47,865 bases of DNA from Shigella phage Henu10: the sequence record OQ791282; one strand, given 5' to 3'. How positions within the stretch are numbered: the stretch's first letter is position 1; each line of letters begins with the position of its first letter. A program made the translations under genes and the position numbers. Shown here piece by piece: positions 6,240 through 9,454 of the stretch. The notes under the pieces were generated by a model, which was given only the letters and a program-made list of their open reading frames with translations, searched no databases and had not been told where the DNA came from.

Positions 6240-6264
6240 GATTTTAAAACACGCTTTTAAAATC
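6240..6264. repeat. 25-bp AT-rich dyad-symmetric motif GATTTTAAAACACGCTTTTAAAATC (copy 1 of 4)
   Basis: Perfect 10-bp inverted arms around a CACGC/GCGTG core; related copies at 14622..14645, 18264..18284, 22373..22396. Confidence 0.6.
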
Positions 6265-6298
6265 AAAGCGGAGGTGTTTTAGTGTAATTTACTTTTTA

Positions 6299-6306
6299 TA
6301 TCTTTG
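6299..6306 (+). promoter_or_regulatory. Bacteroidota-type -7 promoter box (TAnnTTTG) for lipoprotein gene
   Basis: TATCTTTG 29 nt upstream of ATG 6335; the 45-nt promoter/5'UTR is identical in reverse complement to 25514..25558. Confidence 0.5.
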
Positions 6307-6334
6307 CGACATAACTAATTTAAAATTTAAAACT

Positions 6335-7027
6335 ATGAAAAAAGTGTTATTATTTTTTGCCTTGTCCTTGGCAACATTAGGAACTTTTACATCTTGCTCA
6401 AGAGATGATGATAGTACAACGGTAGCAGATAATTATTCAATAACTCCGACAGAAGTATCTATCAAATATGACCAAACGCACAAATTTACAATTAAAAATA
6501 ACGGAAGTGAGGTTTCTGGAAGTTCTTTCTCTTGGAAGTCATCAGATGAAAAAAGAGGCACGGTAGATGCTAATGGTCTCTTAACAGCTAAAAAAGTAGG
6601 AACATTTGATGTTACTGCTACCAAGAATGGGAAAACATTAACTTCTAAAGTTACTATTACACCTTATCAAACATTTTTCACAGAGCCTTTAATGTTTTTT
6701 GGAAAAACAAAAGCAGATGTTAAGGCATCTGAAACTAGAAAGTTAGTTAGGGAAACAGCTACTGCTTTAGCCTATGAAGGAGAAAATGGTTCGGTTAATA
6801 GAATAGGTTATATATTTGATAATAATGGCAATATGACATCTGCAATAGTAACATTCCCTACTAGTTCTAGCTCGACTGATAGGGTTGCTACTTTTTATAA
6901 AGAAAGGTATAATGTTGTTACCGCTGATTCAGATATAATTTATATGAGTCATTTAGATGAACCTATAGTTATGGGTATGGGATATGACTCCACTCTTGGA
7001 TTTCACGTAATATACACTAAAAAATAA
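6335..7027 (+). CDS. Lipoprotein with bacterial Ig-like (Big_2-like) domain
   Basis: Signal peptide plus lipobox MKKVLLFFALSLATLGTFTSC; segment TVDANGLLTAKKVGTFDVTATKNGKTLTSKVTITP resembles Big_2. Confidence 0.55.
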   Translation: MKKVLLFFALSLATLGTFTSCSRDDDSTTVADNYSITPTEVSIKYDQTHKFTIKNNGSEVSGSSFSWKSSDEKRGTVDANGLLTAKKVGTFDVTATKNGKTLTSKVTITPYQTFFTEPLMFFGKTKADVKASETRKLVRETATALAYEGENGSVNRIGYIFDNNGNMTSAIVTFPTSSSSTDRVATFYKERYNVVTADSDIIYMSHLDEPIVMGMGYDSTLGFHVIYTKK

Positions 7028-7070
7028 CAGCTATAAACTATATTTAGCAATAGTTCGCAACCTGAAAAAC

Positions 7071-7106
7071 AAACCCACTAAAAATAGTGGGTTTTGTGTT
7101 TTTGTG
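7071..7106 (+). terminator. Rho-independent terminator
   Basis: Stem AACCCACT / AGTGGGTT with loop AAAAAT, followed by a T-rich run. Confidence 0.55.
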
Positions 7107-7182
7107 GGGTGAGGAAAATTGTTTTTTAAACTATGTCAAGCAGTTTATTTTTTATATTTGTGACTTCTAAAACTTATTTTGA

Positions 7183-8016
7183 ATGGCTGGATTTTACATA
7201 TTTTGTGATGAATCTATTAAAAAAGGAAAATATTATTCTAACTTCTATGGTGGATTGCTGATTGATAAAAATGATTTTGAAAAAGCAAATAATCTGTTAT
7301 TAAGTAGTCTGCGAGATTTAAATATAGAAAACTCTGAGCTAAAATGGAGTTCTGTAAACACATACGGTTTGCAAAGTTATGTTCAAATGATGAATGTCTT
7401 TTTTGAACTGATAAAAAACAACACAATAAAGGTAAGAATTATGTTTACGGACAATCGCTTCTTAACACAGGATTTACCTCGTGAATACCATAAAAAAGAA
7501 TATCATTTACTCTATTATCAGTTTCTAAAACACGCTTTTGGTTTATCATATATAAATTCAGATATTCCAATAGATTTAGAGATTTTTTTTGATGAACTCC
7601 CTGATAAAAAACAGAAGAACGAAGACTTTAAAAAATTCGTGTATGGTATACAGTTTTTACCTAATTTCATTAGTTCAAAAATTAACATAAAAAAGGAGGC
7701 TATATACGAAGTAGATTCTAAAAAACACCTTTTAATGCAATGTTTAGATGTTGTTTTGGGAGCAATAGCCTTTAGATTAAATGATATGCACAAGGAGAAA
7801 CCAGTAGGCTCTCGCAGAAGAGGCAAAAGAACTATCGCAAAAGAAAAACTATACAAACATATCAATAAAAAAATAAGAGAAATATGCCCTAATTTCAATA
7901 TTGGTATTACTACTGGTACAGATGGAGACCTTTTAAACAGATTCTTACACCCCTATAGACACTGGTTATTTATACCCAAAAATGCATCATACGGAACAAA
8001 TGATGAAGACGAATAA
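7183..8016 (+). CDS. Hypothetical protein (N-terminal FCDES motif, possibly DUF3800-like)
   Basis: 277-aa ORF with its own TATATTTG box at 7153..7160; N-terminus MAGFYIFCDES recalls DUF3800-type proteins (recollection only, unverified). Confidence 0.4.
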   Translation: MAGFYIFCDESIKKGKYYSNFYGGLLIDKNDFEKANNLLLSSLRDLNIENSELKWSSVNTYGLQSYVQMMNVFFELIKNNTIKVRIMFTDNRFLTQDLPREYHKKEYHLLYYQFLKHAFGLSYINSDIPIDLEIFFDELPDKKQKNEDFKKFVYGIQFLPNFISSKINIKKEAIYEVDSKKHLLMQCLDVVLGAIAFRLNDMHKEKPVGSRRRGKRTIAKEKLYKHINKKIREICPNFNIGITTGTDGDLLNRFLHPYRHWLFIPKNASYGTNDEDE

Positions 8017-8152
8017 AAAAAAGAAAAGCCCAAAACACCTCTAAAAAACCCTCTGCGTAGTACGCAGAACTTCGAGATACTAAAGACTTTTCTACTGCAA
8101 ATATACAAAAAAAAATAAAACTACAAATATTTACACAAAAATAACTAAAAAA

Positions 8153-8183
8153 TTTGCACAGTAAAAAAATAGTCGTATATTTG
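8153..8183 (+). promoter_or_regulatory. Bacteroidota sigma-A-type promoter (-33 TTTG, 19-nt spacer, -7 TATATTTG)
   Basis: TTTG at 8153..8156 and TATATTTG at 8176..8183; same arrangement on the minus strand at 24000..24030 for the paralogous cassette. Confidence 0.6.
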
Positions 8184-8187
8184 CAGT

Positions 8188-8352
8188 GTTCAAAACCCGT
8201 GAGGATTTTTATATTCTCAATTTAAATAAAGATATTAACTCATTGGCGTGAGGGTGTCGTGTAGTAGTAATACTATACAAATTCGTGAAACACGGGTTTT
8301 GAACAGCACCTACTCACGCTTTTTTTATTTTTTATTATTATGTTCAAAACCC
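8188..8352 (+). promoter_or_regulatory. Structured 5' leader (cis-regulatory RNA switch candidate) of the antirepressor cassette
   Basis: Arm1 GTTCAAAACCCGTG (8188..8201) pairs with arm2 CACGGGTTTTGAAC (8291..8304); arm2 can instead pair with GTTCAAAACCC spanning the start codon (8342..8352); GCGTGAG (8246..8252) / CTCACGC (8313..8319) plus T-run forms a terminator-like hairpin; all arms co-vary in the paralogous leader. Confidence 0.6.
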
Positions 8353-8732
8353 AAACAACCGCACCAACCGCAAACAACAGTAGCGAGGTGCAAAGACAAA
8401 TCGTAAGAAGTGTAGCTATCGGCATTATCAAAGATGCTATCTTATTTGAAAGAATACACGACGGTTTATTTATGGTAATTAACGCTTTTAAAAGCAATGG
8501 GCATTCCAAAAATTTAGCCGCTGCTCAACAATATAGCGGCATAGGTAACGCCATAAACTTAATTTGTGATGGAGAATGTCCTTGTGATGACTTATATAGT
8601 AAGCTAACATCTGTATTTTTAAATATACATCAGCAAGAAAAAAGCGACAATCTTTTGTATATATCCGAAAGGGTTTATAATGAATGGTCTGAGGTTATAA
8701 GAGATTTTTACATTAACAGAAAATCTGCCTAA
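8340..8732 (+). CDS. Hypothetical protein (first gene of antirepressor cassette)
   Basis: 130 aa; N-terminus MFKTQTTAPTANNSSEVQ paralogous to the 23527..23847 product. Confidence 0.5.
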   Translation: MFKTQTTAPTANNSSEVQRQIVRSVAIGIIKDAILFERIHDGLFMVINAFKSNGHSKNLAAAQQYSGIGNAINLICDGECPCDDLYSKLTSVFLNIHQQEKSDNLLYISERVYNEWSEVIRDFYINRKSA

Positions 8733-8734
8733 CT

Positions 8735-9454
8735 ATGAAAGCGTTAATCAAAATTACAGAACAAAACGGAAAACAAGCCGTGTCAGCTAGAGAGTTACAC
8801 TCTTTTTTAGAGATAAAAGATAAATTCACAGATTGGATAAAGCGAATGTTTGAGTATGGATTTATTGAAAACATTGATTATCAGATTTTATCGGATTTTT
8901 CCGAAAAAATAGGCAGAGGTCGTCCATCGGTTGATTACGCCCTTACACTAGATTGTGCAAAAGAGATTTCAATGTTACAGAGAAGCGAAAAAGGCAAACA
9001 AGCGAGGCGTTACTTCATAGAGTGCGAAAAGAAACTCCGCACAGGGGCTTACGCTTTACCACAGACCTTTGCAGAAGCATTGAAATTAGCCGCCCAACAA
9101 GCAGAGCGTATAGAATTGCAACAGGCAGAACTCAAAAAACAAGCCCCGAAAGTGGCTTATTATGAAGAAGTATTGCAAAGCGAAAGCACTTATAATACCA
9201 ATCAAATAGCAAAAGAGTTAGGTATGAGTGCCATTACGCTTAACAAAAAGTTACAAGATTTAAAAGTTCAGTATCGGCAAGGTGGCACTTGGCTACTCTA
9301 CCACAAATATCAAAATAAAGGCTATACGAAAACTAAAACGCATACCTATACCGATACTAAAGGGGCAACCCAAACCAGTATGCAGACGGTATGGACTGAA
9401 AAAGGGCGTTTATTTATACACGAGGCTTTATCTAAACGCTTACAAAGTGCCTGA
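8735..9454 (+). CDS. AntA/AntB-family phage antirepressor
   Basis: N-terminus MKALIKITEQNGKQAVSARELHSFLEIKDKFTDWIKRMFEYGFIENIDYQ matches the AntA N-terminal domain; paralogue at 22775..23524. Confidence 0.65.
   Translation: MKALIKITEQNGKQAVSARELHSFLEIKDKFTDWIKRMFEYGFIENIDYQILSDFSEKIGRGRPSVDYALTLDCAKEISMLQRSEKGKQARRYFIECEKKLRTGAYALPQTFAEALKLAAQQAERIELQQAELKKQAPKVAYYEEVLQSESTYNTNQIAKELGMSAITLNKKLQDLKVQYRQGGTWLLYHKYQNKGYTKTKTHTYTDTKGATQTSMQTVWTEKGRLFIHEALSKRLQSA

What the first reader, a model, noticed from the sequence alone, without database searches (positions are those of the whole stretch)
6240..9454. Mirror-image accessory cassettes flank the morphogenesis module, sharing promoters, leaders and 3' elements
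Left cassette (plus strand): lipoprotein, 277-aa protein, small ORF, AntA antirepressor. Right cassette (minus strand, 22775..25560): AntA antirepressor, small ORF, Bro-N/DinD-like protein, lipoprotein. The lipoprotein promoter/5'UTR/signal-peptide region (6291..6400) is about 90% identical in reverse complement to 25440..25560, and the antirepressor leaders and N-termini (8150..9000 versus 23250..24030) are also near-identical. The middle gene differs between cassettes. The left cassette is inserted between the tail chaperone genes and the tape measure gene, an unusual moron position. The nested inverted repeats could mediate inversion of the ~14-kb structural block.
Basis: seen in the sequence. 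Interest (0 to 1): 0.6.

Follow-up and report, generated by a model that had tools for sequence, protein, structure and literature searches.

The report
Invertible antirepressor cassettes with coded RNA leaders
Two mirror-image accessory gene cassettes in a Riemerella duck-pathogen phage really do share their control regions, have flipped the 14-kb head-and-packaging block in some prophages, and one shared "leader" is an apparently undescribed structured RNA with a variable address code that seems to control antirepressor genes in many Bacteroidota phages.

Summary
The window is a RAP44-like temperate Riemerella anatipestifer siphophage (100% identical to vB_RanS_PT03/PT15/PT33 across both 5-kb cassette regions compared).

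**Observation: confirmed.** Four collinear inverted-repeat segments (A–D; 81–92% identity; exact runs up to 57 bp) link the left cassette (6291–9454, +) to the right one (22775–25557, −). They are expression signals and linkers:
- A: a Bacteroidota −7 promoter, 5'UTR and lipoprotein signal peptide.
- B: an intrinsic terminator.
- C: a promoter plus a structured leader.
- D: the small-ORF/Ant junction plus the AntA domain.

**Inversion.** None of about 20 virion-derived relatives is inverted. Two prophage lineages are, and in chromosome CP072186.1 both junctions are seen. Small-ORF and Ant N-domain alleles have also moved between the two loci. Related phages lack one or both cassettes.

**Unexpected result.** Segment C encodes a ~150-nt leader RNA. 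A 10–13-nt sequence occurs three times: at the 5' end (a), as its complement (a'), and over the small-ORF start codon (a2). All three covary through 45 variants in at least 81 elements from Riemerella, Capnocytophaga and Tannerella prophages. There is no Rfam match. The architecture parallels P1 c4–icd–ant. I rate trans-acting, specificity-coded control of Ant as likely but unproven.

The parts
6291..6396 (+). Segment A, left arm: -7 promoter box TATCTTTG (6299-6306), short 5'UTR, and the first 62 nt of the lipoprotein gene (signal peptide)
   Evidence: 91.5% identical to 25557-25452. The same segment (98%) precedes a different gene in PJA1 and GRNRAP2.
6335..7027 (+). 230-aa lipoprotein with a Big_2 Ig-like domain (signal peptide ...FTSC, then SRDDD)
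   Evidence: PF02368, E 6e-12; phrog_215.
7037..7103 (+). Segment B, left arm: intrinsic terminator 7071-7094 plus T-run, after the lipoprotein gene
   Evidence: The stem has compensatory changes relative to 25102-25036.
7183..8016 (+). DUF3800 protein. This is the variable 'middle slot': absent in RAP44 and CRP34, and replaced by Abi_2 or other genes in prophages.
8153..8183 (+). P_ant(L): -33 TTTG (8153-8156), 19-nt spacer, -7 TATATTTG (8176-8183)
   Evidence: The same architecture holds in 74-81 of the 81 family members at every position of both boxes, although it was not part of the search pattern.
8188..8352 (+). Leader RNA, variant V1. Elements: a 8188-8201; b 8245-8256; P3 8259-8278 (GUAA loop); a' 8291-8304; b' 8307-8320; U-rich tail 8321-8339; AUG 8340; a2 8341-8352.
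8340..8732 (+). Small ORF, allele alpha (130 aa). Conserved N-terminus ..TTAPTANNSSEVQ and C-terminus KSA. Its stop lies 2 nt before the Ant start.
   Evidence: Alpha sits in the right cassette in CRP5, CRP6 and CRP19 (93% nt identity).
8703..9036 (+). Segment D, left arm (334-nt inverted repeat I1): end of the small ORF plus the AntA N-domain, allele N1
   Evidence: The crossover of the GCA_037861375.1 isomer lies inside it.
8735..9454 (+). Ant(L): AntA N-domain (allele N1) plus the KilAC C-domain of the chaperone-side type (C_L)
9461..9483 (+). Terminator after Ant(L); not homologous to the one after Ant(R)
9037..23222 (.). 14,186-nt interval between the Ant arms. It holds the G/GT-like chaperones, tail tube, head, portal, terminase, PAPS reductase, 152-aa protein and WYL_2. 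It is found inverted in two prophage lineages.
22775..23524 (-). Ant(R): AntA N-domain (allele N1) plus the KilAC C-domain of the WYL_2-side type (C_R)
23223..23556 (-). Segment D, right arm
23527..23847 (-). Small ORF, allele beta (106 aa)
   Evidence: Beta sits in the left cassette in CRP5 and CRP6 and in prophages.
23835..23995 (-). Leader RNA, variant V2. Elements: a 23995-23982; b 23941-23930; P3 23927-23908; a' 23896-23883; b' 23880-23867; tail 23866-23848; AUG 23847; a2 23846-23835.
24000..24030 (-). P_ant(R): -33 TTTG (24030-24027), -7 TATATTTG (24007-24000)
24120..24944 (-). Bro-N/DinD-like protein (middle slot of the right cassette)
   Evidence: Absent in PJR4 and CRP6.
25036..25102 (-). 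Segment B, right arm (terminator after the 109-aa lipoprotein gene)
25184..25513 (-). 109-aa lipoprotein (phrog_25409)
25452..25557 (-). Segment A, right arm

Best explanation
The two cassettes are paralogous accessory ('moron') regions of RAP44-like temperate Riemerella phages. Each is assembled from three independently exchangeable units:
1. A lipoprotein unit: promoter, 5'UTR and signal peptide, a variable mature domain, and a terminator.
2. A variable middle gene: DUF3800, DinD, Abi_2, others, or none.
3. An antirepressor unit: promoter, structured leader, small ORF and a translationally coupled Ant.

The inverted repeats are the conserved expression signals and linkers of these units.

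**Shown.**
- The repeats serve as homologous-recombination substrates.
- Small-ORF and Ant N-domain alleles have moved between the two loci.
- The 14-kb block between the cassettes has been inverted at least twice in prophages. In both isomers the Ant C-domain stays with its own side of the block.

**Inferred.**
- The inversion is RecA- or Erf-type homologous recombination, not a programmed switch.
- The inversion is tolerated because each late gene group has its own upstream element.

**The antirepressor unit.** P_ant starts transcription at or near the first base of a ~150-nt leader. The leader has two nearly iso-energetic folds:
- P1 fold: the 5'-terminal sequence a pairs with a'.
- T fold: a terminator-like helix b:b' is followed by a U-run.

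In read-through mRNA, a' can instead pair with a2, which covers the AUG and the first 3-4 codons of the small ORF. The stop codon of that ORF abuts the Ant start.

**Most likely mechanism (inferred, about 45%).** The short terminated leader RNA acts in trans on a2, and on a, of cognate transcripts. This keeps the small ORF and Ant untranslated in lysogens, as c4 RNA does on icd-ant mRNA in P1. The hypervariable a/a'/a2 triad is the address. It makes the left and right units, and the units of different phages, independent of one another.
For: **Repeats and gene content.**

**Modularity.** Units are present or absent independently in 12 phages and many prophages.

**Cross-locus exchange.**
- Alpha is on the left here but on the right in CRP5, CRP6 and CRP19 (93% nt).
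- Beta shows the reverse pattern.
- Gamma is on the left in RAP44 and on the right in PJA1.

**Inversion.**
- CP072186.1 shows the left junction (TMP / DUF3800 / alpha / chimeric Ant / WYL_2 ... TerL, portal, all +).
- It also shows the right junction (chaperones + / Ant - / small ORF / DinD / lipoprotein / early genes -).
- These junctions carry >=5 kb of 96-99.96% collinear sequence on either side.
- The Ant gene of GCA_037861375.1 switches from R-type to L-type residues inside repeat D. Its flanks are 99.5-99.75% identical to the window.
- attP lies in the integrase gene, far from both junctions.
- The phage encodes an Erf-type recombination protein.

**Promoter.** At every position of TTTG-N19-TAnnTTTG, 74-81 of the 81 elements carry the consensus base; the TTTG of the -7 box is invariant.

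**RNA structure**, on a MAFFT alignment of 45 variants:

| Helix | Cells paired | Pairs with double changes |
|---|---|---|
| P1 | 97% | 12 of 14 |
| T | 94% | 8 of 11 |
| P3 | 99% | 6 of 8 |
| a':a2 | 99% | 9 of 12 |

- Slid controls give 29-49% paired, and 0 of 500 shuffles reach the observed values.
- G.U versus A.C counts are 25:1 in P1 and 24:0 in P3, so the constraint is on the sense-strand RNA.
- 85 of 129 unique pattern hits pass the three-way test, against 11 of 2580 with a' shuffled.
- The P1 and T states differ by a median of 0.1 kcal/mol, and the unconstrained MFE is always one of the two.
- A U-run follows b' in 43 of 45.
- In the T state the AUG-complementary part of a' is 67% unpaired.

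**Trans-action argument.**
- There are 45 specificities in an otherwise conserved RNA.
- All 8 two-copy Riemerella genomes examined and 8 other two-copy contigs carry two different specificities.

**Parallel with P1.** The P1 record annotates a1/b1, c4, a2/b2, icd and ant1 in the same order, with an icd/ant1 ATGA overlap.

**Downstream genes.** AntA, Rha or KilA-N combined with KilAC antirepressors, or small proteins without any Pfam match.
Against: **No expression data.**
- The transcription start, the termination at T and any short RNA species are all inferred.
- The sign of regulation is open. In the related-by-logic IsrK system the short RNA activates translation.

**Alternative reading of the folds.** P1 and T might coexist as a coaxial pseudoknot rather than alternate. 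Only 2 nt separate a' and b', and the 5' end is free.

**Bias.** Membership of the 45-sequence set was decided using P1 and a':a2 pairing, so those two helices are biased upward. T and P3 are not.

**Limits of the inversion evidence.**
- It comes from public assemblies. A path switch at a 57-bp exact run or across a ~0.4-kb repeat cannot be formally excluded.
- No virion genome is inverted.
- The viability of the isomer is unknown.
- Both junctions were seen in only one genome.
Confidence: 0.7

Rival explanations
1. The nested inverted repeats are a programmed, frequent DNA-inversion switch, like the P1 C segment or Mu G segment. On this view it toggles expression of the structural block or of the Ant genes within a population.
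For: - Inverted isomers exist.
- Inversion re-pairs promoter/leader modules with the other Ant C-domain.
- Exact runs of 54-57 bp are present.
Against: - No invertase gene is annotated in or beside the cassettes. The only annotated recombinase is the tyrosine integrase at 38229-39545.
- The crossovers lie at different places within long, diverged homology, not at a short fixed site.
- The 334-nt arm is missing in RAP44, CRP5 and CRP6, whose Ant N-domains differ between left and right.
- 0 of ~20 virion genomes are inverted, and only about 1-2 of each 19-24 prophage contigs read.
- For contrast, P1 has cin plus 20-bp cix sites.
Confidence: 0.07
2. The leader is a purely cis-acting switch, an attenuator or translational sequestor. 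A conserved factor or ligand binds the invariant core (GGUGU, the GUAA-capped P3, ACAGCACC). This decides between P1, which leaves the start codon free, and a':a2, which masks it. No RNA acts in trans. The logic is that of hok mRNA tac/ucb/dcb, or of a riboswitch.
For: - The core nucleotides are invariant and P3 carries a GNRA loop, in an RNA with a multi-helix junction.
- The two states are iso-energetic.
- a and a2 compete for the same a'.
Against: - A cis-only switch gives no reason for the triad to diversify into 45 variants while the core stays invariant.
- It also gives no reason for two copies in one genome always to differ.
- No ligand or protein candidate was identified.
Confidence: 0.3
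3. The three copies of the variable sequence are DNA sites, that is, operators for a specificity-matched DNA-binding protein, and not RNA pairing partners.
For: - The sites lie between a promoter and the regulated gene.
- Immunity-type operators do covary with their repressors.
Against: - Departures from Watson-Crick pairing are almost all G.U on the sense strand (25:1 and 24:0 against A.C). Such positions would be mismatches in DNA-level repeats.
- Other helices (T, P3) covary without being repeated sites.
- No cassette gene was found to covary with the triad. Leader variants and small-ORF and Ant alleles assort independently.
Confidence: 0.03
4. The inverted prophage arrangements are assembly artefacts, and the repeats have only ever mediated patch-wise gene conversion.
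For: - Repeats with 57-bp exact runs, or ~0.4 kb of near-identity in CP072186.1, can mislead assemblers.
- No virion genome is inverted.
Against: - Two unrelated assemblies show the inversion, with different crossover positions.
- One further contig shares the GCA_037861375.1 right junction.
- CP072186.1 is a closed chromosome with both reciprocal junctions.
- The arms in GCA_037861375.1 are only 92% identical, and the chimeric gene shows a single clean switch.
Confidence: 0.12

Closest known systems
Phage P1/P7 immI operon: c4 antisense RNA - icd - ant1/ant2 (Rfam C4 RF01695 and c4-a1b1 RF03163)
   Same: - One promoter drives a same-strand RNA element carrying an antisense sequence, followed by a small ORF and then an overlapping or abutting antirepressor gene.
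- The target sequence occurs twice, once upstream (a1/b1) and once at the small ORF's translation start region (a2/b2). See the P1 record annotation and sequence.
- From my own memory of Citron & Schuster 1990, which is not held in the library: P1 and P7 specificity differs by compensatory changes.
   Different: - There is no sequence or structure match (positive control on P1).
- One 10-13-nt segment covers the AUG itself, instead of two 7-8-nt segments over the RBS.
- A terminator-like stem follows the antisense segment, rather than RNase P processing.
- The host phylum is Bacteroidota, whereas c4 is recorded for Proteobacteria and their phages.
- Dozens of specificities are seen.
Gifsy-1 isrK - orf45 - anrP (Salmonella)
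   Same: - A leader sRNA has its own terminator.
- Read-through produces the mRNA for a small upstream ORF and an antirepressor-like protein.
- The transcript has two alternative conformations.
- The short form acts in trans on the long form.
   Different: - In IsrK the short RNA activates translation. The sign is unknown here.
- The RNA is unrelated.
- No triad or specificity diversification is described for IsrK.
hok/sok-type mRNA fold-back control (tac / ucb / dcb elements)
   Same: A 5'-end element and the translation-start element compete for one complementary sequence. This comparison rests on my own knowledge and was not checked in a paper here.
   Different: - No toxin gene was recognised.
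- No opposite-strand antisense RNA was looked for.
- The context is an antirepressor.
Phage morons and mosaic modules exchanged at conserved linker sequences
   Same: - The units have their own promoter and terminator, sit between late genes on the opposite strand, and are absent from relatives.
- Alleles recombine at short conserved boundaries.
   Different: - The same module family occurs twice in one genome in inverted orientation.
- As a result, exchange occurs between the two loci and the intervening block can flip.
Site-specific invertible segments (P1 Cin/cix C segment, Mu Gin/G segment)
   Same: A phage DNA block bounded by inverted repeats exists in two orientations.
   Different: - There is no invertase gene and there are no short crossover sites.
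- The crossovers fall at various points within long, diverged homology.
- The block carries packaging, head and tail-tube genes, not alternative tail-fibre ends.

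Membership tests
C4 antisense RNA family / clan CL00128 (Rfam RF01695, RF03163) | Match to the covariance models | tested here: not met
   - cmscan of the whole window at gathering threshold gave 0 hits.
- The left leader searched at E<=10 gave only an unrelated chance hit.
- Both models hit P1 at 68.8 and 51 bits.
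C4 antisense RNA family / clan CL00128 (Rfam RF01695, RF03163) | Same-strand antisense element between a promoter and a small ORF that precedes an antirepressor gene | tested here: met
   - Order: P_ant, then leader, small ORF and Ant, with 2 nt between the small-ORF stop and the Ant start.
C4 antisense RNA family / clan CL00128 (Rfam RF01695, RF03163) | Two sense copies of the target flank the antisense segment, with the downstream copy at the translation start region | tested here: met
   The a, a', a2 triad is present in 85 of 129 loci, against 0.4% in the shuffled control. a2 begins at the UG of the AUG.
C4 antisense RNA family / clan CL00128 (Rfam RF01695, RF03163) | A discrete processed RNA (RNase P) that represses in trans | not testable with these tools
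   No transcript data are available. Only a terminator-like stem with a U-run was found.
AntA/KilAC phage antirepressor proteins | AntA (PF08346) and ANT/KilAC (PF03374) domains above the gathering score | tested here: met
   Both Ant proteins score 88-110 bits per domain and match phrog_63. Antirepressor activity itself was not tested.
Moron (autonomous accessory unit in a late operon) | Own promoter and terminator, located between conserved late genes, and absent in relatives | tested here: met
   - -7 boxes.
- Terminators at 7071-7094 and 9461-9483.
- PJN03 and CP011859.1 lack the insertion.
Site-specific DNA inversion systems (Cin/Gin/Hin type) | An invertase gene adjacent to the segment, with short defined crossover sites | tested here: not met
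   - No recombinase is annotated in or beside the cassettes.
- The crossover positions differ between the two isomers.
Site-specific DNA inversion systems (Cin/Gin/Hin type) | Both orientations exist in nature | tested here: met
   Normal order is seen in ~20 phages and most prophages. The inverted order is seen in GCA_019552185.1 and GCA_037861375.1.
Intrinsic terminator / attenuator | A G+C-containing stem directly followed by a U-run, in competition with an alternative helix | tested here: inconclusive
   - The b:b' stem covaries, and 43 of 45 have >=6 T in the next 10 nt.
- However, the stem encloses ~50 nt, and P1 could stack on it rather than exclude it.
Riboswitch | A conserved ligand-binding core plus an expression platform | not testable with these tools
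   Invariant junction nucleotides and a GNRA-capped helix are present. No ligand is implied by the gene context.

The most novel reading that the evidence does not exclude
The leader defines a new class of phage 'immunity RNA' in Bacteroidota. It would be a bistable ~150-nt RNA that is both the 5' leader of, and a trans-acting regulator of, antirepressor operons. A hypervariable 10-13-nt code written three times (5' end, antisense, start codon) would give dozens of mutually orthogonal specificities. Recombination between two such units in one genome, including inversion of the 14-kb block, would re-pair RNA controllers with different Ant effectors.
Probability: 0.35. Interest if true: 0.85.

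Novelty: new variant of a known kind. Interest (0 to 1): 0.7.

Why it matters
**If the leader works as proposed:**
- It would be, as far as I could find, the first RNA-based lysis–lysogeny or anti-immunity control described in Bacteroidota phages. That phylum has no Hfq and no Shine–Dalgarno-driven initiation.
- It would provide a natural library of at least 45 orthogonal antisense and target pairs on one scaffold. That makes specificity rules directly testable, and it is useful for engineering Bacteroidota and their phages.
- It would give an annotation handle, promoter plus RNA, for switch regions in Riemerella, Capnocytophaga and Tannerella prophages. At present these regions are annotated as hypothetical, and start codons are often miscalled.

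**The inversion result matters for phage genomics.**
- A packaging, head and tail-tube block can sit in either orientation relative to the tape measure, tail and lysis genes.
- This implies autonomous late promoters.
- It is also a caution for synteny-based classification and assembly checking of RAP44-like phages, which are being developed against a duck pathogen.

Tried and rejected
**No known RNA family.** Rfam gave nothing, either on the whole window at gathering threshold or on the left leader at E<=10.

**Sigma-70 promoter scan.** It was uninformative for this phylum: 16 sites found against 14 expected. I read the Bacteroidota TTTG/TAnnTTTG motifs from alignments instead.

**First pattern scan, anchored on the Riemerella promoter.**
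- In genome contigs it returned about 27 chance hits and only R. columbina as a real one.
- The promoter-independent pattern worked.

**Inversion.**
- I first rejected it on the basis of ~20 virion genomes.
- Exact-protein look-ups in assemblies then overturned that (onward).
- Look-ups with TerL, DUF3800, the 61-aa chaperone part and the HTH protein returned only normal arrangements.

**A leaderless ORF starting at the transcript 5' end.** Rejected. The GUG is not conserved; column 5 of the alignment is C in about half the sequences.

**DNA-level operator reading of the triad.** Rejected on the G.U versus A.C asymmetry.

**Primary papers.** The P1 c4 papers (PMC312442, PMC196329, PMC523184) are not held. 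I used the annotated P1 record instead.

**Prior description.**
- The RAP44-like phage paper does not mention antirepressors or these repeats.
- A survey of candidate structured RNAs in human microbiomes has no antirepressor-associated entry in its main text. Its supplementary lists were not checked.

**Not done.**
- I did not build a covariance model. The pattern hits and the MAFFT alignment already gave unbiased covariation for T and P3.
- No slippery heptamer for the chaperone frameshift was identified.

Full report
**1. What the window is.**
- Megablast of the two cassette regions against the phage collection finds 21-22 Riemerella records. The match is 100% over both 5-kb queries to vB_RanS_PT03, PT15 and PT33, and extensive to RAP44 and the CRP, PJ and GRAP phages.
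- These are temperate siphophages with an integrase. attP lies inside the int gene (PMC12169736).
- Nearly all genes are on the minus strand.
- The left cassette is a plus-strand island. It lies between the tape measure gene (1967-6148, -) and two small genes, 9827-10288 and 9624-9809.
- The second of these matches only positions 146-205 of a 208-aa PHROG. This is the pattern expected of a G/GT frameshift chaperone pair.

**2. Check of the observation.**
- The inverted repeats are real and far beyond chance. There are four collinear segments, A to D, at 81-92% identity, with E-values from 7e-11 down to 9e-136 and exact runs of 29-57 bp.
- The similarity is not continuous. The small-ORF bodies, the middle genes, the mature lipoprotein domains and the Ant C-terminal halves are unrelated or only distantly related between the two cassettes.

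**3. What the shared segments are.**
- Segment A begins 8 nt upstream of a perfect Bacteroidota -7 box, TATCTTTG. It runs through a ~28-nt 5'UTR into the signal peptide up to the lipobox cysteine.
- In PJA1 and GRNRAP2 the same segment (98%) is joined to a different downstream gene.
- Segment B is a hairpin with a T-run, i.e. a terminator, with compensatory stem changes between the two copies.
- Segment D covers the last codons of the small ORF (..KSA), the 2-nt spacer and about 100 codons of the AntA domain.
- Segment C holds a TTTG-N19-TATATTTG promoter and a leader.
- The two Ant genes share only their last ~20 coding nt at the 3' end. Their terminators are unrelated.

**4. Comparative anatomy: a kit of exchangeable units.** Across 12 phages:

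| Part | Distribution |
|---|---|
| Left cassette | Lacks DUF3800 in RAP44 and CRP34; lacks the small ORF and Ant in GRNRAP2 and CRP19 |
| Right cassette | Lacks DinD and the lipoprotein in PJR4; carries another gene in CRP6; reduced to segment A, other genes and a leader in PJA1 and GRNRAP2, where the leader drives a small-ORF::WYL_2 fusion |
| Left cassette, wider relatives | Absent altogether in PJN03 and prophage CP011859.1 |
| Middle slot in prophages | Also holds Abi_2 and other genes |
| Small-ORF body | Three alleles: alpha 130 aa, beta 106 aa, gamma 109 aa |
| Ant N-domain | At least four alleles; N4 is the Phage_pRha (Rha) type (PF09669 on the matching 248-aa prophage Ant) |
| Ant KilAC C-domain | Fixed by position; the chaperone-side and WYL_2-side types never swap |

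- Alpha is on the left here but on the right in CRP5, CRP6 and CRP19 (93% nt identity over 505 nt).
- Beta shows the reverse pattern.
- Gamma is on the left in RAP44 and on the right in PJA1. The two loci have therefore exchanged alleles.
- The 334-nt repeat D exists only where allele N1 sits in both cassettes, namely the window lineage, CRP12, CRP34 and PJR4.

**5. Inversion.**
- In all ~20 virion-derived records the tape measure / cassette / chaperone junction is contiguous. Left and right matches lie on the same strand at the expected spacing.
- Exact-protein look-ups in genome assemblies changed the picture.
- *CP072186.1* (GCA_019552185.1, a 2.07-Mb closed chromosome), first junction:
  - The order is HTH, TMP(-), a 133-aa gene, DUF3800, alpha and a 246-aa Ant (all +). 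It continues directly into WYL_2, PAPS reductase, TerS, TerL and portal, all on the plus strand.
  - blastn shows 99.8% and 98.5% identity to window 1283-6426 and 7050-8817. It then shows 98.5% identity to 23273 down to 15802, which is the inverted orientation.
- *CP072186.1*, reciprocal junction about 14 kb further on in the same chromosome:
  - The order is capsid, tail tube and chaperones (+), then Ant 239 aa, a 130-aa small ORF, DinD, the 109-aa lipoprotein and the early genes (-).
  - This stretch is 99.96% identical to window 23787-29126.
  - In this prophage both cassettes carry alpha bodies. The recombining repeat was therefore longer than in the window.
- *GCA_037861375.1* (plus one similar contig) shows the right-hand junction of an isomer of a near-identical phage:
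  - Positions 3055-9590 equal window 15235 down to 8700 (99.5%).
  - Positions 9253-11626 equal window 23223 to 25594 (99.75%).
  - The two alignments overlap exactly on repeat D.
  - The Ant protein switches from R-type to L-type residues once, after ..MLQRS.
- Frequencies among contigs read were 1 of 19 (alpha), 2 of 24 (beta) and 2 of 24 (chaperone). They were 0 with TerL, DUF3800, the 61-aa ORF and the HTH protein.
- No invertase gene is annotated nearby, and the phage encodes an Erf-type protein. I therefore read these as homologous-recombination inversions, tolerated at least in prophages.
- A 67-nt element precedes each minus-strand late gene group, three copies inside the block and one before the tape measure gene. 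This would make late expression independent of orientation. That is an inference.

**6. The leader.**
- Comparing the left and right copies showed compensatory differences in a long-range stem. The left copy has GUUCAAAACCCGUG / CACGGGUUUUGAAC. The right copy has GUUAAACCAUCGUG / CACGAUGGUUUAAC.
- The two copies fold to different minimum-energy structures, with z-scores of -4.2 and -3.8.
- The Riemerella phages have five leader variants. In every one the variable sequence recurs a third time immediately after the A of the small-ORF AUG.
- A promoter-independent pattern was built from three invariant motifs: GGTGTMG..AGTAAT..ACAGCACC. It hit 65 IMG/VR contigs and 106 metagenome contigs.
- 85 of 129 unique loci pass the three-way test, against 11 of 2580 shuffled controls. 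This gives 81 unique elements and 45 codes.
- All 81 elements have TTTG-N19-TAnnTTTG ending 5 nt before the first paired base, although the promoter was not part of the pattern.
- Results on a MAFFT alignment of one sequence per code:
  - RNAalifold recovers P1 and P3.
  - P1, T, P3 and a':a2 are 94-99% paired, with most pairs showing double changes.
  - Slid controls give 29-49% paired, and 0 of 500 shuffles reach the observed values.
  - T and P3 played no part in choosing the sequences.
- G.U outnumbers A.C by 25:1 in P1 and 24:0 in P3, so the constraint acts on the sense RNA.
- The P1 and T states differ by a median of 0.1 kcal/mol, and the MFE is always one of them.
- A U-run follows b' in 43 of 45.
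- In the T state the AUG-complementary part of a' is mostly unpaired.
- The ORF that starts in a2 is usually 90-130 aa. It is followed, at -4 to +4 nt in most elements, by an AntA-, Rha- or KilA-N-type KilAC antirepressor or by small proteins with no Pfam match. In three cases the leader directly precedes a KilA-N+KilAC protein.
- Names attached to identical or >=90% identical proteins place the elements in Capnocytophaga gingivalis, other Capnocytophaga and Tannerella forsythia. Riemerella anatipestifer and R. columbina carry them too.
- Among cultured phages only Riemerella phages carry the element.
- All 8 two-copy Riemerella genomes examined and 8 other two-copy contigs hold two different codes. 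Outside Riemerella the two copies are in direct orientation, so the mirror arrangement is not part of the RNA's logic.

**7. Mechanism.**
- Shown: a conserved promoter, a conserved multi-helix RNA, and an antisense segment that can pair either with the transcript's 5' end or with the start codon region of a small ORF abutting Ant.
- Inferred: termination at T yields a short RNA, and that RNA or the leader in cis controls initiation at a2.
- Hypervariability of the triad in an otherwise invariant RNA, together with the rule that co-resident copies differ, points to selection for orthogonality, that is, to trans action.
- The closest precedent is P1 immI. The annotated P1 record lists the promoter, a1/b1, the 77-nt c4 RNA, a2/b2 ('repression of icd ant translation'), icd, and ant1 overlapping icd by ATGA. 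The 7-8-nt repeats and their complements are visible in the sequence.
- Rfam finds C4 and c4-a1b1 in P1 but nothing in the window. This is therefore an analogue and not a member. c4 is listed for Proteobacteria and their phages.
- IsrK-orf45-anrP shows that a terminated leader can instead activate its read-through isoform. The sign of regulation here is therefore open.

**8. Verdict.**
- The inversion is an occasional recombination product seen in prophages, not a demonstrated switch.
- The most interesting content is the leader RNA family, for which I found no prior description in Rfam or in the papers searched.
- Main caveats: there are no transcript data, the inversion evidence rests on public assemblies, and large unnamed motif catalogues were not checked.

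Noticed in passing
6195-6261, 14577-14643, 18219-18285, 22328-22394: - A 67-nt direct-repeat element (67-76% identity) occurs four times. Each copy lies just upstream of a minus-strand late gene group: tape measure, head genes, portal, and the 152-aa/NinG region.
- Its core is the palindrome GATTTTAAAA-N5-TTTTAAAATC, and the central CACGC/GCGTG flips between copies.
- It is a candidate late promoter or activator site, and might explain why block inversion is tolerated.
   Followed up: partly
47739-47865 vs 1-127; 43804-44254 vs 47541-47865+1-253: - The last 127 nt of the window repeat its first 127 nt exactly, which indicates a circular overlap.
- The window is 3737 bp longer than PT15. The extra stretch is 44129-47865, in the tail-fibre region, flanked by 94-97% direct repeats.
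- PT03 and PT15 may therefore be deletion or collapsed-assembly variants.
   Followed up: partly
1432-1964: - A plus-strand HigB/HTH-antitoxin moron lies between the tape measure gene and the distal tail genes.
- The HigB-like ORF is only 57 aa here, against 97 aa in RAP44 and prophages. The HTH gene is intact.
   Followed up: no
14646-15775: A third plus-strand island, of four small ORFs, sits inside the head gene cluster. It is conserved in relatives, and only phrog_32215 matches.
   Followed up: no
32246-32324: A 12-nt tandem repeat (GTATCAGAAACT-like, at least 5 overlapping copies) lies inside the ORF 31846-32418.
   Followed up: no
22182-22295 (window); RAP44 L002 28427-28855: - NinG is reduced to a short remnant in the window lineage, through a ~315-bp deletion relative to RAP44.
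- Prophages are polymorphic for this deletion.
   Followed up: no
L266 15459-16334 (CP002346.1); L269, L259: - The middle slot of the left cassette in R. anatipestifer prophages can hold an Abi_2 abortive-infection gene (on the opposite strand) or unrelated 176-aa and 128-aa genes.
- The slot looks like a defence or moron hot spot.
   Followed up: partly
L004 2565-2960 (PJA1), L006 1665-2060 (GRNRAP2): - In phages lacking the right-hand Ant, the leader (variant V3) and the first ~28 codons of the gamma small ORF are fused in frame to WYL_2.
- WYL_2 is therefore placed under leader control.
   Followed up: partly
L220 (P1) 16787-22445: - The P1 immI neighbourhood has the sim superimmunity genes upstream and a DUF3800 gene (rlfA) downstream of c4-icd-ant-kilA-repL.
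- This loosely echoes the lipoprotein / DUF3800 / leader / small ORF / Ant content of the left cassette.
   Followed up: no
L019 3907-4456 (Riemerella columbina DSM 16469): - Two leader elements with different codes lie in tandem.
- The first is followed by only a 36-aa ORF and a terminator. It is possibly a decayed unit or a stand-alone RNA gene.
   Followed up: no
clusters 1 and 2: Gene callers often give the leader-controlled ORFs N-terminal extensions or truncations (142 vs 114 aa; 95 vs 106 aa). The a2 rule could fix these start codons.
   Followed up: no
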